DNA of 62,429 nt from Promethearchaeota archaeon (GTDB lineage Archaea > Asgardarchaeota > Lokiarchaeia > Sigyniarchaeales > SOKP01), in the NCBI GenBank assembly GCA_019894975.1, contig JAGXNO010000020.1:1-62429 (forward strand). The letters run 5' to 3'. A model generated the notes under the pieces. It had not been told where the DNA came from. It saw only the letters and a program-made list of their open reading frames with translations, and did not search any database. Below, in pieces: positions 79-61,853 of this stretch (its first letter is position 1; the number at the start of each line of letters is the position of its first letter). The translations under genes were made by a program, and so were the position numbers.

Positions 79-444
79 TTACATACTAATAAAAATACTC
101 GCGAATATCTTCCCGACTTTAGTCAATCCTATTTTAATAAATTCCTTTTTCGAAATTTCTCCCTTTTTACACCGCTTCCACGAGTTCTTTAGAATTTTCC
201 AATCGGAACCTAAATTCTCTTTCATATAATCCTCGACATCACTAATCTCTTCCATAAGTTTGTTAACGATTTCAGTCACATCCTCGATTCTCAGTCTAAT
301 CTCGCTGGTATCATCCTTTATTTCAGCTAACTGTGTTTCCATCTCCTCCAACTTGCCATAAAGTTTTTTGAACCTCTTTCTTTTGGGATCGTTCTCTTTG
401 AGTTTGTTAATCATTTTATTCCAGGAGTTCTTGAGATTATCCAA
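79..444 (-). CDS. Hypothetical coiled-coil protein, possibly a 5'-truncated remnant
   Basis: 121-aa ORF with a heptad-like charged helix. The frame stays open upstream to about 550 without ATG/GTG, so the start is uncertain. Confidence 0.5.
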   Translation of the reverse strand: MDNLKNSWNKMINKLKENDPKRKRFKKLYGKLEEMETQLAEIKDDTSEIRLRIEDVTEIVNKLMEEISDVEDYMKENLGSDWKILKNSWKRCKKGEISKKEFIKIGLTKVGKIFASIFISM

Positions 445-47204: not shown

Positions 47205-47378
47205 ATGAAATGTTCCAGTGAAAATTCTCAAGCTCTATTTTTCACAGAAATTATTTTAGAATCTAATGTTAAATTTTTAAGGATTAAAAATAATATTATA
47301 TTTAACATTAGCATAACCCTATTCTATTTGGTAGAGTGCTAATTAAAATTTAAAATCTTTTTAAATCAGGTATTTGGG

Positions 47379-47903
47379 TTGTCAACAACAGATTATACAT
47401 TTAAAATTGTTATTTTCGGAGACTCACAAACAGGAAAAACTACTCTCACTCATAGATATTTAACGAATCTTTTTCAGGAAGGAATTCAGATGACGCTTGG
47501 TGTGGACTTTAAACTTAAGACAATTGAAATGGATAACAAAAAGATAAAGCATCAAATTTGGGACTTTGCTGGTGAAGAAAGGTTTAGATTTCTTTTTCCT
47601 TCTTATATCCGGGGAGCTAATGGTGCCATTTTTATGTTTGATATTACAAATTATGGTTCACTTGCTCACGTAGATGATTGGTTTGAAATTGTTGAAAAAG
47701 AGATTGACCATGATCTACCTTTGATTTTCGTTGGAGGTAAAACTGATTTGATGCACCTTAAGGAAGTTTCAACAAGGAAGGCTATGGAAATAGCAACTTC
47801 AAAGAATGCTGACGGCTTTATCGAGTGTAGCTCGAAAACCGGGGAAAATGTTCACAAAATTTTCGATCTGCTAACAAGACTCATCCTCAAAAAAGGGGAA
47901 TAA
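47379..47903 (+). CDS. Rab-like small GTPase
   Basis: G1 GDSQTGKT, G2 TLGVDF, G3 WDFAGEERF, G4 GGKTD, G5 CSSK; no prenylation Cys. Confidence 0.92.
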   Translation: MSTTDYTFKIVIFGDSQTGKTTLTHRYLTNLFQEGIQMTLGVDFKLKTIEMDNKKIKHQIWDFAGEERFRFLFPSYIRGANGAIFMFDITNYGSLAHVDDWFEIVEKEIDHDLPLIFVGGKTDLMHLKEVSTRKAMEIATSKNADGFIECSSKTGENVHKIFDLLTRLILKKGE

Positions 47904-50632: not shown

Positions 50633-51373
50633 ATGGGAGTAAAAACTGCTCTGTACGGTTTTAAGAGTTTAATGTATCGAAGTGGTTGGCTTTACAATGC
50701 TGTAACAAGGAGACTTTATGATCAAGATAGAAAGTTCTTAACTATTGCAAAACTTATTGGTAATGGACCACAGAAAGTTTTGGACCTTCCGTGTGGCACT
50801 GGTTATCTAATGCGCTTTTTACATCCCTTGATCGAATATGAAGGAGTTGATCTAAATCAACGATTTCTAAAACGTATTAGAAAAAAAGAATTAAAAAAAA
50901 GGAATATAAAACTTGAAAAAATTAGCCTGATACAGAAAGACATTTTTGATTTCCAAGACTATAACGGAGAGAAATTAGACGTCATAGTAATATCTGATAT
51001 TTTACATCATATTTATCCAAAACATAAAGATTTGATAAATATCGCGAAAAATTACACTCAAAAAATAATTATTTGTGAACCCTTTGCTGTAAAACCAAAG
51101 GATATCAATCCACGAGATAAATTATTCAAAGTAATTGTATTTTTTGGTAAATTTTTGCCAATCTCGCTCCATAGAATCATTGATTTTCTTTTTCTAGATA
51201 ATGATGGAATTAATCCCTACCATAAAAGAAGCAAATGGTGTTTTGATTTCAAGGGTATTCAAGAACTTTACAATGCTATGGGTTTTAATCAAGGTTATCG
51301 TTTATTAGACGAATACATTGGTATTTGGGAATCAACAAGTCCACCTTTTGACCAAAAATCTACAAACAATTAA
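50633..51373 (+). CDS. Class I SAM-dependent methyltransferase
   Basis: VLDLPCGTG, GVDLN, DILHH. Confidence 0.85.
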   Translation: MGVKTALYGFKSLMYRSGWLYNAVTRRLYDQDRKFLTIAKLIGNGPQKVLDLPCGTGYLMRFLHPLIEYEGVDLNQRFLKRIRKKELKKRNIKLEKISLIQKDIFDFQDYNGEKLDVIVISDILHHIYPKHKDLINIAKNYTQKIIICEPFAVKPKDINPRDKLFKVIVFFGKFLPISLHRIIDFLFLDNDGINPYHKRSKWCFDFKGIQELYNAMGFNQGYRLLDEYIGIWESTSPPFDQKSTNN

Positions 51374-51417
51374 TATAAAAACCTTGAATTAATTTATATT
51401 ATTATTATTAGAAGTTT

Positions 51418-52089
51418 TTGAGGGATCTTTTGAAATTAACTCTAAGTTTATGGGACATAGCAGGTCAAGAACGGTTTGAGTTCTTTAAGACTGATTTTTT
51501 CAGAGGAGTCGCTGCCGTTGGTTTAGTTTTCGATTTGTCCCGACCTGATACTTTTGATTCAATCAATGAATATTTTGATGATATACGTGATCGTTCTGGA
51601 AATATTCCAATTATTTTAGTAGGAAATAAAAGTGATCTAATAAAAGATATTGGTGAAACCATTCCTCGGGAAAAAATAATACAAATGATAAATCAATACA
51701 ATCTTTTTGAATATATTGAAACATCAGTATTAGAAAACAATAACGTTGAGAACTTGTTTTATCGTTTATCGCTAACGGCATTATTAGACCTCAAACCACG
51801 TTTAGGAGAAATCATTGATTCTGATCACTTTCGGTTTAAAATTTTACTTGTAGGTGCGGCGGCTGTAGGAAAATCCTCTTTAATTGATTTTTTTATTAAA
51901 AAAGAATTTAAGGAATCATATAAATTAACAGTAGGATTAGATTTTTTAGTTACCGATCTTGAAATAAGAGATGAGGATGTCCCTAAAGAAGTACTTGGTC
52001 TAATTAAAGATTCCGTGAGATTTTATAAGAAGAATATTAAAAAAATCCGTAAATTGGAAGATCAGATTCCAGAAATGAATAAATCCTGA
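51418..52089 (+). CDS. Circularly permuted Rab-like small GTPase (G3-G4-G5-G1-G2)
   Basis: WDIAGQERF (aa 12-20), GNKSD (69-73), ETSV (101-104), GAAAVGKS (146-153), YKLTVGLDF (168-176). Confidence 0.88.
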   Translation: MRDLLKLTLSLWDIAGQERFEFFKTDFFRGVAAVGLVFDLSRPDTFDSINEYFDDIRDRSGNIPIILVGNKSDLIKDIGETIPREKIIQMINQYNLFEYIETSVLENNNVENLFYRLSLTALLDLKPRLGEIIDSDHFRFKILLVGAAAVGKSSLIDFFIKKEFKESYKLTVGLDFLVTDLEIRDEDVPKEVLGLIKDSVRFYKKNIKKIRKLEDQIPEMNKS

Positions 52090-52254: not shown

Positions 52255-52464
52255 ATGAGTCTAGATGATCTCGAAAACGAAGTTGATGACATATTGCAAA
52301 AAATAGAGGAACTTGAAGAAAAATGCGATACACTTGAAATTTGCGAAAAAGATGATGGGTGTGAGAATTGCGAATCATACAAGAAGATAGAAGAACTTTC
52401 AGCTAAAGTCGCAGAAATAGAAGATAAAATTGAGAAATTAATGGAAGAAGAAGAAGAAGATTAG
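52255..52464 (+). CDS. Small acidic coiled-coil protein with four Cys
   Basis: 69 aa; helical hairpin around C-x5-C-x5-C-x2-C; GGTG SD upstream. Confidence 0.7.
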   Translation: MSLDDLENEVDDILQKIEELEEKCDTLEICEKDDGCENCESYKKIEELSAKVAEIEDKIEKLMEEEEED

Positions 52465-60237: not shown

Positions 60238-60747
60238 TTATAGTTTCTTAATAATTTCTTTTGCTAATAGTTTAAAAGCTAAATCAATATTTTGGCCTGT
60301 TTTAGAAGAAATTTTTATGTATTTAAAAAAATCATATTCCTTTGGAAATCCCCGAGCAAATTTATCATCAACAGTAACCGATTCAGTTAAATCTAATTTA
60401 GTACCTAAAAAAATTATTGGTATTCCTGGGTTTTTACCTCGGCAAATTTTAACCCATTGAGCTATGCTTTCTAAACTAGAAGGGCGGGTAAGGTCAAAAA
60501 GTAAAAGAGCTCCTCTAGCGCCTATAGCATAATTTTCAAGTAAAGGTCTAAAATGATCCTGCCCCCCAAAGTCCCAAATTTGTAAACTAATTGATTCTCC
60601 TTTAATGTCTAGCTCTTTAATGAAGAATTCCACACCTAGTGTCATTTTTGTGTCAGCCAGGAAACGTCCCTCCACGTAACGATAAAGGAGCGTTGTCTTG
60701 CCTACACCTCCGTCTCCTGCTGTTATAACTTTGAGAAGCTTGGCCAT
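60238..60747 (-). CDS. Rab-like small GTPase
   Basis: GDGGVGKT, TLGVEF, WDFGGQ, GTKLD, ISSK. Confidence 0.93.
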   Translation of the reverse strand: MAKLLKVITAGDGGVGKTTLLYRYVEGRFLADTKMTLGVEFFIKELDIKGESISLQIWDFGGQDHFRPLLENYAIGARGALLLFDLTRPSSLESIAQWVKICRGKNPGIPIIFLGTKLDLTESVTVDDKFARGFPKEYDFFKYIKISSKTGQNIDLAFKLLAKEIIKKL

Positions 60748-60891
60748 TTTAAATCACTATCGATGCAAAATTTTAATAAATGGATTATTTTAGGATTGTA
60801 ATATTTCAAATTACTTTAATATTATATATGAAATCTAAATTAAAATGTATGTAGTATTTTTTATAAAAAACTAAATTTAGTGTAAGACAAG

Positions 60892-61335
60892 TTAAACTCT
60901 TTCTATTGATAAAAATTTTTTTTGTCGAAGAAAAATTGAACCTAAACCTGTTAATCTTGCTTTCTTGCGTAATTCAGAATCGTTTGTGGCTAGAAAAGTA
61001 TTATATCCTTCATCTTTTAACTCTAAAGATTTCTTTAAGAGAAATTCATCAGTTGATTCATCCCTATCTTTAATTTCTTCCAAGAAGATGATCTCATAGT
61101 TTTTTTTTTTTCTCTCAAGATATAATAATCCTGAATCTAACAACCTAATAAATTTGGTACTCTTTGATTCTCTCCTTCTTTTAGCTTCAAGTTCATCAAG
61201 GATTTGCTTAAATATGATAAATCTCAATTCTCCTTCTAAAGTTAACCTTATTTCATTTAAATAATCAATTTTAAACTGAAAAGGAAGTAAAATGAAATTT
61301 GAATCAATTATTATAAGACTTGTATTAGGCTTCAA
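60892..61335 (-). CDS. PIN-domain ribonuclease, Fcf1/Utp24-like
   Basis: IIDSNFILLPFQFKID, ILDELE, TDEFL, LATNDSELRKKAR..G..IFLRQKK. Confidence 0.88.
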   Translation of the reverse strand: MKPNTSLIIIDSNFILLPFQFKIDYLNEIRLTLEGELRFIIFKQILDELEAKRRRESKSTKFIRLLDSGLLYLERKKKNYEIIFLEEIKDRDESTDEFLLKKSLELKDEGYNTFLATNDSELRKKARLTGLGSIFLRQKKFLSIERV

Positions 61336-61853
61336 TAAGTCTGTCGCTCTAATATTTTTTGGGTTAATATATTGAACGCATCACTCACATGTTTTCCCGT
61401 TTTAGATGAGATTTTAAGAAAGTTAATTAAATTATATTCTTTAAGAAATGATTTTGCGTAATCATCATCAACTTGAATTTCATCTTCTAAATCTAGCTTT
61501 GTCCCCACGAAAAGGACGGGAAGATTAGGGTCTCCCTTTCGGACGATGTTAAGCCATTGCTCCAAGTTTTGAAGACTGGACATCCTAGTAAGGTCAAACA
61601 TGAGCAGTGCTCCTTTAGCACCTAGGACATAGCTTTCAAGTAAAAAACGAAATCGCTCCTGTCCTCCAAAATCCCAGAGTTGAAGGGTGCATTGTTTACT
61701 ATCAATCTCCGTCTCTTTTAGGAAAAACTCAACGCCAATAGTCATCTTCGTTTCTGCTGAGAATCTTCCTTCCACGTATCTGTGTAGGAGCGTTGTTTTT
61801 CCAACTCCACCTTCTCCTGCAGTCAAGATTTTTAGTATGAACTTCTGTGGCAT
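61332..61853 (-). CDS. Rab-like small GTPase, close paralog of 60238..60747
   Basis: GEGGVGKT, TIGVEF, WDFGGQERF, GTKLD, ISSK; its stop overlaps the PIN gene start (TTGA). Confidence 0.93.
   Translation of the reverse strand: MPQKFILKILTAGEGGVGKTTLLHRYVEGRFSAETKMTIGVEFFLKETEIDSKQCTLQLWDFGGQERFRFLLESYVLGAKGALLMFDLTRMSSLQNLEQWLNIVRKGDPNLPVLFVGTKLDLEDEIQVDDDYAKSFLKEYNLINFLKISSKTGKHVSDAFNILTQKILERQTY

What the first reader, a model, noticed from the sequence alone, without database searches (positions are those of the whole stretch)
51418..52089. Stand-alone circularly permuted Rab-like GTPase (G3-G4-G5-G1-G2)
Seen: the protein starts at strand beta3 (LSLWDIAGQERF) and runs through G4 (NKSD) and G5 (ETSV). 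After a short linker it supplies beta1/P-loop (FKILLVGAAAVGKSS), switch I (YKLTVGLDF) and beta2, then ends in a charged helix. Each motif occurs exactly once. The upstream gene ends only 44 nt earlier and no second DxxG follows. The new termini fall in the beta2-beta3 hairpin, a structurally tolerable site. Established: the common permuted GTPases (RsgA/RbgA/YqeH) have order G4-G5-G1-G2-G3, and the G3-first order is known from the rare eukaryotic cpRAS domain within larger proteins. Inference: either an independent archaeal permutation (tandem duplication then trimming; tandem Rab paralogs exist nearby) or a relative of cpRAS. Unlinking switch I from switch II could change the switching mechanism or allow domain-swapped oligomers.
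Basis: partly seen in the sequence, partly recalled or inferred. Interest (0 to 1): 0.8.

Follow-up and report, generated by a model that had tools for sequence, protein, structure and literature searches.

The report
Circularly permuted Rab-like GTPase, Asgard archaea
This gene encodes a real, conserved small Rab-like GTPase of one order of Asgard archaea whose single domain is rearranged to start at strand 3 and end at strand 2. Only the eukaryotic cpRAS domain is known to share this order, so it is an apparently undescribed, independently evolved variant of a known oddity.

Summary
The ORF encodes one complete Ras-superfamily G domain in the order G3-G4-G5-G1-G2, and Pfam Ras matches it in two swapped pieces.

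- **Start codon:** the true start is most likely the TTG at 51430 (219 aa), not 51418.
- **Not a fragment:** 142 same-order relatives were collected, nearly all with intact G motifs. dN/dS is about 0.1. AlphaFold2 gives a confident single domain (pLDDT 84, pTM 0.81).
- **One origin:** de-permuted sequences form one clade (SH-aLRT 95). It sits beside canonical Asgard Rab-like GTPases and away from eukaryotic Rabs and tandem multi-GTPase proteins.
- **Narrow distribution:** the family was found in 34 of 301 Asgard species genomes, all in two families of one order.
- **Membrane link:** basal and sister members carry C-terminal transmembrane anchors. The window's protein keeps only a conserved polybasic amphipathic helix attached directly to strand 2.

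My reading is a GTP-binding switch that probably sits at the membrane, with its anchor leaving the interswitch instead of helix 5.

The closest known case is eukaryotic cpRAS, which has the same topology but is RAS-type, multidomain and eukaryote-only. Common descent could not be tested directly and looks unlikely.

This scan found the same family earlier in other genomes and reached the same verdict. I found no paper describing it.

The parts
51430..52089 (+). Coding sequence of the permuted Rab-like GTPase. It has a TTG start, encodes 219 aa and includes the stop codon.
   Evidence: ORF. Pfam Ras in two swapped stretches. The start is supported by orthologs with TTG or ATG at the same position. 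dN/dS is 0.096-0.137 against close orthologs.
51418..51429 (+). Four in-frame codons from an upstream TTG.
   Evidence: Orthologs begin at the position equivalent to 51430. The 219-aa form is on record as P0003.
51420..51423 (+). GAGG, a Shine-Dalgarno-like motif 6 nt before the TTG at 51430.
   Evidence: Read from the sequence. Identical in L018 but not conserved in L019 or L015, so the support is weak.
51393..51400 (+). AT-rich TTTATATT, a TATA-box-like element about 30 nt upstream of the start.
   Evidence: Read from the sequence. An AATTTA(TA)T block is shared by the window, L018, L019 and L015. Promoter function is inferred, not tested.
51433..51468 (+). Strand 3 and the G3 motif (residues 2-13, ending W-D-I-A-G-Q). 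This is the new N-terminus of the domain.
   Evidence: AlphaFold2 strand E2-10. D9, G12 and Q13 are invariant in 34 family members. Model residues 1-122 superpose on RhoA residues 51-181 at 1.6 A, Z about 13.
51625..51636 (+). G4 motif N-K-S-D (residues 66-69).
   Evidence: Read from the sequence. K67 and D69 are invariant and N66 nearly so. [NT]KxD is present in 141 of 142 family members.
51721..51729 (+). G5 motif T-S-V (residues 98-100). The family consensus is T-S-A.
   Evidence: S99 is invariant; T98 and A100 are nearly invariant. The window and P0004 have V at position 100.
51787..51825 (+). New connection from helix 5 to strand 1 (residues 120-132, core D-L-K-P-R-L-G-E). It exists only in the permuted form.
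   Evidence: G126 is invariant; D120 and R124 are nearly invariant across both clades. The model places a short strand at residues 128-130.
51853..51876 (+). G1 P-loop G-A-A-A-V-G-K-S (residues 142-149).
   Evidence: G142, G147 and K148 are invariant. GxxxxGK[ST] is present in 142 of 142 family members.
51907..51963 (+). Switch I with G2 threonine T167 (Y-K-L-T-V-G-L-D-F), followed by strand 2 (residues 160-178).
   Evidence: Y164, T167 and D171 are invariant. Residues 160-169 have low pLDDT in the nucleotide-free model, which I attribute from my own knowledge to switch I mobility. Strand E171-178.
51985..52065 (+). C-terminal amphipathic polybasic helix (residues 186-212), attached to the end of strand 2 through the conserved P185.
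   Evidence: Helix H186-212 in the model; the 10-residue blocks from 181 to 210 average pLDDT 91, 90 and 81. Hydrophobic moment 0.6-0.73, and net charge +4 to +7 in the 18 of 20 short-form members the script could parse; the G domain has net charge -10. In relatives the same position leads on to a transmembrane anchor.

Best explanation
The gene encodes a functional, stand-alone small GTPase of the Ras superfamily (Rab-like). Its single G domain is circularly permuted at the strand 2/strand 3 hairpin. The chain runs strand 3, switch II, G4, G5 and helix 5. A conserved 13-residue linker then leads to strand 1 with the P-loop, helix 1, switch I and strand 2. The chain ends in a polybasic amphipathic helix.

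**Shown here**
- The order of elements, with each one present once.
- Intact nucleotide-binding and catalytic motifs.
- A confident single-domain model.
- Strong purifying selection.
- A single origin of the permutation inside the Asgard Rab-like GTPases.
- Restriction to one Asgard order.

**Inferred**
- It binds and hydrolyses GTP like a normal Rab-like switch.
- It works at a membrane. The family's deeper branches are tied to the membrane by a C-terminal transmembrane tail that follows the same helix. The window's lineage lost the tail and kept the basic amphipathic helix.
- The anchor leaves strand 2, directly after switch I, instead of helix 5. Nucleotide-dependent movement of switch I and the interswitch could therefore control exposure of the helix or the orientation of the domain on the membrane, as in Arf proteins.

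The confidence of 0.8 applies to the core claim of a real, functional, independently permuted Rab-like GTPase. I put the membrane role at about 0.5 and the Arf-like coupling at about 0.2.
For: **Motif order and identity:** searches show two swapped stretches against Pfam Ras, PDB Rabs and TIGR00231.

**Not a one-off:** more than 120 homologs of 207-276 aa share 71-94% identity over 85-99% of the query, across many independent assemblies. Deeper representatives at 42-63% identity have the same order.

**Motifs:** among 142 permuted proteins the counts are G1 142, G2 140, G3 140, G4 141 and G5 142.

**Selection:** dN/dS is 0.096 at dS 0.245 and 0.137 at dS 0.69.

**Fold:** AlphaFold2 gives pLDDT 84.4 and pTM 0.81, with six strands and five helices each present once. 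The only sub-50 segments are in switch I and the last three residues; the switch II block averages pLDDT 57. Residues 1-122 superpose on residues 51-181 of Rho and Rab chains at 1.5-1.6 A, Z 12.5-13.5.

**Single origin:** 23 de-permuted sequences form one clade with SH-aLRT 95. Its sister group is canonical Asgard Rab-like GTPases, including the own-genome gene C142:26123-26653. Both halves of the query have that same gene as their best paralog.

**Distribution:** 34 of 301 Asgard species genomes carry it. That is 22/22 in the own genus, 31/68 in the own family, 2/7 in the sister family and 0/226 in 28 other families.

**Membrane link:** tail-anchor transmembrane segments occur in P0242, P0243, P0246, P0056 and P0103. 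One or two transmembrane helices occur in most long clade B forms. The helix is amphipathic and carries net charge +4 to +7.
Against: - No biochemical, expression or localisation data exist.
- The model's coordinates could not be inspected. The placement of strand 1, helix 1 and strand 2 in the sheet, and the packing of the C-terminal helix, rest only on pTM and pLDDT. The structure aligners used are sequential and covered only residues 1-122.
- The window's protein has no transmembrane segment, so membrane association is extrapolated from relatives and from the helix's physical chemistry. A basic amphipathic helix could instead pack on the acidic G domain or bind a partner or nucleic acid.
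- G5 reads T-S-V rather than T-S-A in this genome.
- The Arf-like coupling is an analogy, not a result.
Confidence: 0.8

Rival explanations
1. The family shares its permutation by descent with the eukaryotic cpRAS domain, through inheritance from an Asgard ancestor or through transfer.
For: The motif order G3-G4-G5-G1-G2 and the break point between strands 2 and 3 are the same as described for cpRAS (PMC2430557). A later paper suggests CPRas may date back to the last eukaryotic common ancestor (PMC13393502). Asgard archaea are the closest prokaryotic relatives of eukaryotes (stated in the abstracts listed).
Against: - cpRAS belongs to the RAS family proper, has the TIE G2 motif and sits inside 840-3900-aa VWA or macroglobulin-like proteins.
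- This family's best solved relatives are Rab11, Rab23, Rab4 and Rab7, and its G2 reads T-V-G-L-D-F.
- It nests beside canonical Asgard Rab-like GTPases and apart from the eukaryotic Rabs in the tree.
- It was found in only two families of one Asgard order, and in none of the 226 genomes searched from 28 other families.
- No cpRAS sequence was available here, so the direct tree was not made.
Confidence: 0.05
2. The ORF is a decayed middle fragment of a tandem two-GTPase gene, or an assembly or gene-calling artefact, and makes no working protein.
For: Proteins with tandem GTPase domains exist, and the query aligns across their domain junctions. The start codon is TTG. The genome is a metagenome-type assembly with 8.55% estimated contamination.
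Against: - The same order, termini and length recur in more than 120 proteins from independent assemblies.
- The start position is conserved, and dN/dS is about 0.1.
- All G motifs are intact, and the new helix 5 to strand 1 linker is itself conserved.
- No GTPase remnants flank the gene.
- The two domains of each tandem protein are one another's sisters and are unrelated to this clade.
Confidence: 0.02
3. The protein works as an obligate domain-swapped dimer or oligomer. Strand 3 of one chain would pair with strand 2 of another because the hairpin is cut.
Against: The AlphaFold2 monomer model is confident as a closed single domain (pTM 0.81). The conserved linker and C-terminal helix point to an intramolecular solution.
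Confidence: 0.08
4. It is a soluble Rab-like switch. The basic C-terminal helix binds a protein partner or nucleic acid rather than a membrane. One candidate is the conserved acidic 69-aa Cys4 coiled-coil protein encoded just downstream.
For: The window's protein has no transmembrane segment. A very acidic 68-72-aa coiled-coil protein with four invariant cysteines lies downstream in the window and in five orthologous loci.
Against: - Those loci come from closely related genomes in which the whole neighbourhood is syntenic, so adjacency carries little weight.
- The more distant tail-anchored ortholog in L017 lacks that neighbour.
- Relatives with transmembrane anchors at the same position favour a membrane role.
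Confidence: 0.15

Closest known systems
cpRAS domain of eukaryotic CPRas proteins (Elias & Novotny 2008, Biol Direct 3:21, PMC2430557)
   Same: It has the same motif order G3-G4-G5-G1-G2 and the same cut between strands 2 and 3, with helix 5 joined directly to strand 1. All signature motifs are intact and it belongs to the Ras superfamily.
   Different: - cpRAS is RAS-family proper (TIE switch I) and eukaryote-only.
- cpRAS is always a domain inside large proteins (840-970 aa with VWA, or 3933 aa with macroglobulin-like repeats).
- This family is Rab-like (T-V-G-L-D-F), archaeal and stand-alone at about 219 aa, or followed only by a membrane anchor.
- This family groups with canonical Asgard Rab-like GTPases, so it most likely arose independently.
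YRG / YlqF-YawG circularly permuted GTPases (RbgA, RsgA, YqeH)
   Same: They are P-loop GTPases that tolerate circular permutation and, per PMC2430557, keep the fold and GTPase activity.
   Different: - Their order is G4-G5-G1-G2-G3, cut between strand 3 and helix 2.
- They are not Ras-superfamily proteins, are universal, and act in ribosome biogenesis (the role is from the NCBIfam model names and my own knowledge).
- The query matches the YqeH model at 30.9 bits against a cut-off of 297.
Canonical Asgard Rab-like small GTPases (for example Thorarchaeota Rab, PDB 7ezb; own-genome gene C142:26123-26653)
   Same: These are the nearest sequence relatives, at 41% identity over strand 3 to helix 5 and 51% over strand 1 to strand 2. 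They form the sister group in the tree and carry the same motifs.
   Different: They have the normal order G1-G5. About 50 such genes occur in this genome, against one permuted gene.
Arf-family GTPases (interswitch toggle coupled to an amphipathic membrane helix)
   Same: This is a functional analogy only. An amphipathic helix next to the interswitch region could couple the nucleotide state to membrane binding.
   Different: In Arf proteins the helix is N-terminal and often myristoylated, and the domain is not permuted. Here the helix is C-terminal, polybasic and covalently continuous with strand 2. The query scores lower against the Pfam Arf model (E 9e-08) than against the Ras model (E 4e-36).

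Membership tests
Ras superfamily small GTPase (Pfam PF00071 Ras / TIGR00231 small_GTP) | All five G motifs are present and intact (G1 GxxxxGK[ST], G2 Thr, G3 DxxG(Q), G4 NKxD, G5 SA-type). | tested here: met
   Pfam Ras scores 124 bits against a cut-off of 21.6. TIGR00231 scores 66 bits against 42.5. The motifs were read from the sequence and are invariant in the family.
Ras superfamily small GTPase (Pfam PF00071 Ras / TIGR00231 small_GTP) | Canonical linear order G1-G2-G3-G4-G5. | tested here: not met
   The profile matches in two swapped stretches. Residues 6-118 match profile positions 47-157, and the P-loop part follows.
Ras superfamily small GTPase (Pfam PF00071 Ras / TIGR00231 small_GTP) | A Ras-like alpha/beta fold with six strands and five helices. 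| tested here: inconclusive
   The AlphaFold2 model has all elements once, with pTM 0.81. Residues 1-122 superpose on strand 3 to helix 5 of Rho and Rab chains at 1.6 A. The position of strand 1, helix 1 and strand 2 could not be checked with sequential aligners.
Rab family sensu stricto | Closest sequence similarity is to Rabs, and switch I is of the Rab type (T-I-G-V-D-F). | tested here: met
   The top 60 PDB sequence matches are Rab or Ypt proteins: Rab11, Rab23, Rab4, Rab43 and Rab7. Switch I reads K-L-T-V-G-L-D-F.
Rab family sensu stricto | C-terminal cysteine prenylation motif after a hypervariable tail (from my own knowledge of the family). | tested here: not met
   The protein ends ...E-M-N-K-S and has no cysteine in its tail. 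Relatives end in transmembrane helices or basic helices.
Rab family sensu stricto | Placement inside the eukaryotic Rab clade. | tested here: not met
   In the tree the family sits with Asgard Rab-like sequences and apart from Rab35, Rab32 and Rasef. Eukaryote sampling was small.
cpRAS (Elias & Novotny 2008) | Order G3-G4-G5-G1-G2, with the cut between strands 2 and 3. | tested here: met
   compared with the description in PMC2430557.
cpRAS (Elias & Novotny 2008) | RAS-family affinity, including the TIE G2 motif. | tested here: not met
   G2 reads T-V-G-L-D-F. The best solved relatives are Rabs.
cpRAS (Elias & Novotny 2008) | Embedded in a large protein with a VWA (Sec23/24 trunk) or macroglobulin-like region. 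| tested here: not met
   The protein is 219 aa and stand-alone. The longer relatives checked match only GTPase or P-loop models in Pfam, with no VWA or macroglobulin model, and end in transmembrane helices.
cpRAS (Elias & Novotny 2008) | Monophyly with the cpRAS domains in a tree. | not testable with these tools
   No cpRAS sequence could be obtained. None appeared among the hits listed for the longer-protein and representative searches.
YRG / YlqF-type circularly permuted GTPases | Order G4-G5-G1-G2-G3. | tested here: not met
   G3 lies at the N-terminus here. The YqeH model scores 30.9 bits against a cut-off of 297.4, and the RsgA Pfam model 14.6 bits against 30.

The most novel reading that the evidence does not exclude
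The permutation is adaptive. It moves the chain end, and with it the membrane anchor (a transmembrane tail in the ancestor, a polybasic amphipathic helix here), from helix 5 to strand 2 of the interswitch. Switch I movement on GTP binding would then directly pull or release the anchor. That would give a Rab-like scaffold an Arf-like, nucleotide-gated way of engaging membranes, evolved independently in a prokaryote.
Probability: 0.2. Interest if true: 0.75.

Novelty: new variant of a known kind. Interest (0 to 1): 0.6.

Why it matters
A 2008 survey held that the G3-first permutation of a GTPase could not fold. cpRAS then showed that it exists, but only as an uncharacterised domain buried in huge eukaryotic proteins.

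This family is a second and most likely independent case. It is small, stand-alone, strongly conserved and easy to express, so it is a practical system for three questions:
- Does a Ras-like switch still work when switch I and switch II are on opposite ends of the chain?
- How is the cut hairpin compensated?
- What does moving the membrane anchor to the interswitch do?

It also adds to the variety of small GTPases and their prenylation-free membrane attachment in Asgard archaea, the group used to reason about the origin of eukaryotic membrane traffic. Its restriction to one order means it is a lineage-specific invention, not part of the eukaryotic heritage.

Tried and rejected
- **Homodimer prediction** (complex prediction, two copies with alignment A1). 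The score was 0.01 against a mark of 0.42, so there is no verdict either way. It is not used as evidence.
- **Structure search of the model**. Foldseek and VIA-align are sequential aligners and covered only residues 1-122. They could not confirm where strand 1, helix 1 and strand 2 sit.
- **AlphaFold2 of the long clade B form P0126** with 10 sequences. pLDDT was 55 and pTM 0.39. Only the secondary structure is usable: a beta-rich region at 272-369 followed by two long helices. No fold search was run on it.
- **Search for cpRAS sequences.** The longer-protein search and the representative search listed tandem multi-GTPase proteins and Asgard forms but no VWA-containing cpRAS. The direct tree could not be made.
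- **The ~682-aa conserved protein upstream of the gene in L013, L016 and L017** as an obligate partner. It was not found in the window's own genome, which is 95% complete. It scores only 16.6 bits on DUF4139.
- **Tandem two-GTPase proteins as surviving intermediates of the permutation.** Their two domains are each other's sisters and lie far from the permuted clade.
- **Literature searches** for an Asgard permuted small GTPase found nothing. The library lacks many subscription papers, so this is weak evidence that the family is undescribed.

Full report
**1. The observation**

The + strand ORF 51418-52089 is real. An in-frame TAG at 51409 bars any 5' extension, and the upstream methyltransferase-like gene ends at 51373.

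Pfam Ras (PF00071) matches at E 4e-36 in two stretches. Residues 6-118 match profile positions 47-157, which is strand 3 to helix 5. The P-loop part comes after residue ~139. PDB Rab chains match the same way: query 137-190 aligns to Rab11 residues 5-58, and query 9-117 to residues 59-165. TIGR00231 also matches in two pieces.

The order G3-G4-G5-G1-G2 is therefore confirmed, with each motif present once. No GTPase remnant lies beside the gene. Other hits in the window are separate canonical genes at 47280-47879 and 60250-61847.

**2. Start codon**

Most orthologs begin M-K-[LV]-T-L-S-L-W-D. The window has a second TTG at 51430 that gives exactly this start. L018 and L019 have TTG at the aligned position and L015 has ATG there. 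A GAGG lies 6 nt upstream, and an AT-rich TATA-like block about 30 nt upstream is shared by four of the six loci aligned. I take the gene as 51430-52089, encoding 219 aa. This form is on record as P0003.

**3. It is a family, not a fragment**

- The word-indexed search listed more than 120 proteins of 207-276 aa with 71-94% identity over 85-99% of the query. They come from many independent assemblies, and the sources label them Promethearchaeota, Lokiarchaeota, Thorarchaeota or Hodarchaeota.
- The exhaustive representative search added deeper members at 42-63% identity that match in one colinear stretch from their own residue ~2.
- Among 142 permuted proteins collected, the G motif counts are 142 (G1), 140 (G2), 140 (G3), 141 (G4) and 142 (G5).
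- An alignment of 34 members shows the motif residues invariant. It also shows a conserved new connection between helix 5 and strand 1, with core D-L-K-P-R-L-G-E: G126 invariant, D120 and R124 nearly so.
- Nei-Gojobori dN/dS is 0.096 against L018 (dS 0.245) and 0.137 against L019 (dS 0.69). More distant pairs give about 0.05-0.19 where dS is not saturated.

This rules out a decayed middle piece of a tandem gene or an assembly artefact.

**4. Fold**

AlphaFold2 with the 34-row alignment gives pLDDT 84.4 and pTM 0.81. The elements in order are:
- strand 2-10 and helix 14-24
- strand 27-35 and helices 39-56
- strand 61-66 and helices 69-89
- strand 94-97 and helix 106-119
- a linker with a short strand at 128-130
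- strand 133-142 and helix 148-157
- strand 171-178
- a long helix at 186-212

The only sub-50 segments are residues 160-169 (switch I) and the last three residues. The switch II block (11-20) averages pLDDT 57.

Foldseek and VIA-align place residues 1-122 on residues 51-181 of Rho and Rab chains at 1.5-1.6 A, with Z 12.5-13.5. These aligners are sequential, so the position of the C-terminal third in the sheet rests on the model's global confidence alone.

**5. Origin**

I cut the 34 sequences at the linker and rejoined them in canonical order inside a script. I then aligned them with canonical domains from the own genome (about 50 exist, against one permuted gene), database representatives, the halves of tandem proteins and a few named eukaryotic Rabs.

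- FastTree on 142 rows gave two well-supported permuted clades side by side.
- IQ-TREE (LG+C20 PMSF, quick search) on 67 rows joined all 23 permuted Asgard sequences in one clade with SH-aLRT 95.
- Clade A (support 97) holds the window's protein and the tail-anchored forms. Clade B (support 97) holds the long forms.
- The neighbouring group (support 90) consists of canonical Rab-like sequences, including the own-genome gene C142:26123-26653.
- Both halves of the query have that same gene as their best own-genome match: 41% identity for the strand 3 to helix 5 part and 51% for the strand 1 to strand 2 part. The two halves therefore come from one kind of ancestor.
- The two domains of each tandem protein are sisters of each other and lie elsewhere in the tree. 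No surviving intermediate was found.
- A eukaryote-like 243-aa protein with the same order (P0336) groups with eukaryotic Rabs, not with this family.

**6. Distribution**

In 301 species genomes sampled across the phylum, the family was found in 34. That is 22/22 of the own genus, 31/68 of the own family, 2/7 of the sister family in the same order, and none of the 226 genomes searched from 28 other families. A clade A query and a clade B query recovered the same 34 genomes. Clade B is the version found in the sister family. One genome of the own genus carries both.

**7. Architecture and a likely role**

- Of the 142 proteins, 119 are short and have no hydrophobic segment.
- About ten proteins of 271-284 aa end in a single tail-anchor transmembrane helix. 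These include the basal clade A members P0242, P0243 and P0246.
- The long clade B proteins (316-755 aa) continue from the same post-strand-2 helix. The longest run through a proline-rich linker and a conserved beta-rich region, and most end in one or two transmembrane helices.
- In the window's protein, residues 186-212 form a confidently modelled helix with hydrophobic moment 0.6-0.73 and net charge +5. The G domain has net charge -10. The polybasic character (+4 to +7) holds in the 18 of 20 short forms the script could parse.

From this I infer that the family is membrane-associated. The ancestral C-terminal anchor emerged from strand 2, and the window's lineage replaced the transmembrane tail with peripheral binding through a basic amphipathic helix.

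The helix is continuous with strand 2, which follows switch I. Coupling of nucleotide state to helix exposure, as in Arf proteins, is therefore plausible but untested.

**8. Neighbourhood**

The local gene order is conserved among close relatives: thioredoxin_9, a methyltransferase, the permuted GTPase, a 68-72-aa acidic protein, an acyl-CoA dehydrogenase and a penicillin amidase.
- The small acidic protein has four invariant cysteines.
- A highly conserved ~682-aa protein sits upstream in L013, L014, L016 and L017. It was not found in the window's genome.
- None of this establishes a partner.

**9. Comparison with what is known**

cpRAS (PMC2430557) has the same order and the same cut. It is RAS-type, with the TIE motif, is eukaryote-only and is embedded in VWA or macroglobulin-like giants. 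YRG GTPases have a different order.

The family here is Rab-like by its best matches, archaeal and stand-alone. Together with the tree and the narrow distribution, this makes an independent origin the best reading. The direct test against cpRAS sequences could not be run.

Full-text searches found no description of an Asgard permuted small GTPase.

**10. Earlier findings of this scan**

The scan has met this family before in other genomes. Two earlier follow-up reports reached the same verdict, which I re-derived here from my own tests.

**11. Verdict**

This is a real and well-conserved new variant of a known kind: the second G3-first permuted Ras-superfamily GTPase and the first stand-alone and prokaryotic one. 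Interest is moderate to high for GTPase specialists.

Noticed in passing
window 52255-52464 (+): A 69-aa, very acidic coiled-coil protein with four invariant cysteines (C24, C30, C36, C39) lies just downstream of the GTPase. It is also present in L018, L019, L013, L015 and L016. It has no significant family match: every Pfam hit scores below the model's cut-off. It could be a small zinc-binding partner of the basic C-terminal helix, but this is untested.
   Followed up: partly
L013:3882-5930, L016:2191-4242, L017:1940-4000: A highly conserved ~682-686-aa protein lies immediately upstream of the permuted GTPase, or of its methyltransferase neighbour, in several relatives. It has no significant Pfam match (DUF4139 at 16.6 bits only) and its C-terminal part looks like a coiled coil. 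It was not found in the window's own genome, which is 95% complete.
   Followed up: partly
P0124, P0126, P0128, P0133 (clade B, 419-724 aa; locus L020:5001-6332): These long relatives add four things after the permuted G domain: a helix, a proline-rich linker, a conserved beta-rich region containing an F-P-G-C motif, and two hydrophobic helices predicted as transmembrane at the end. The AlphaFold2 model was too weak (pLDDT 55) to name the fold.
   Followed up: partly
P0336 (243 aa, from the representative library): This eukaryote-like, Rab7-like protein has the same G3-first order and groups with eukaryotic Rabs in the tree. It may be a mis-called piece of a tandem Rab gene or another independent permutation. 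Its source organism is unknown.
   Followed up: partly
P0122 (1634 aa), P0123 (Rotaria socialis, 991 aa), P0130 (Adineta ricciae), P0137 (Stentor coeruleus): These eukaryotic proteins are made of two to eight tandem Ras-like domains. The query aligns across their domain junctions, which mimics a permuted match.
   Followed up: partly
window 60250-61847 (-) and 47280-47879 (+): The same contig carries canonical small GTPase genes, two of them adjacent. The genome holds about 50 canonical Ras-like genes and a single permuted one.
   Followed up: partly
L013:7084-8384 (-): The acyl-CoA dehydrogenase next to the locus is called as two 216-aa genes in L013 and L014. In the window and in L015, L016, L018 and L019 it is one gene of 428-433 aa. 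This may be a split or frameshifted gene in that lineage.
   Followed up: no
window 51430; L018:3001; L019:3001; L013:6001: The TTG start codon of the permuted GTPase gene is shared by the window and three orthologs, while L015 uses ATG at the same position.
   Followed up: yes
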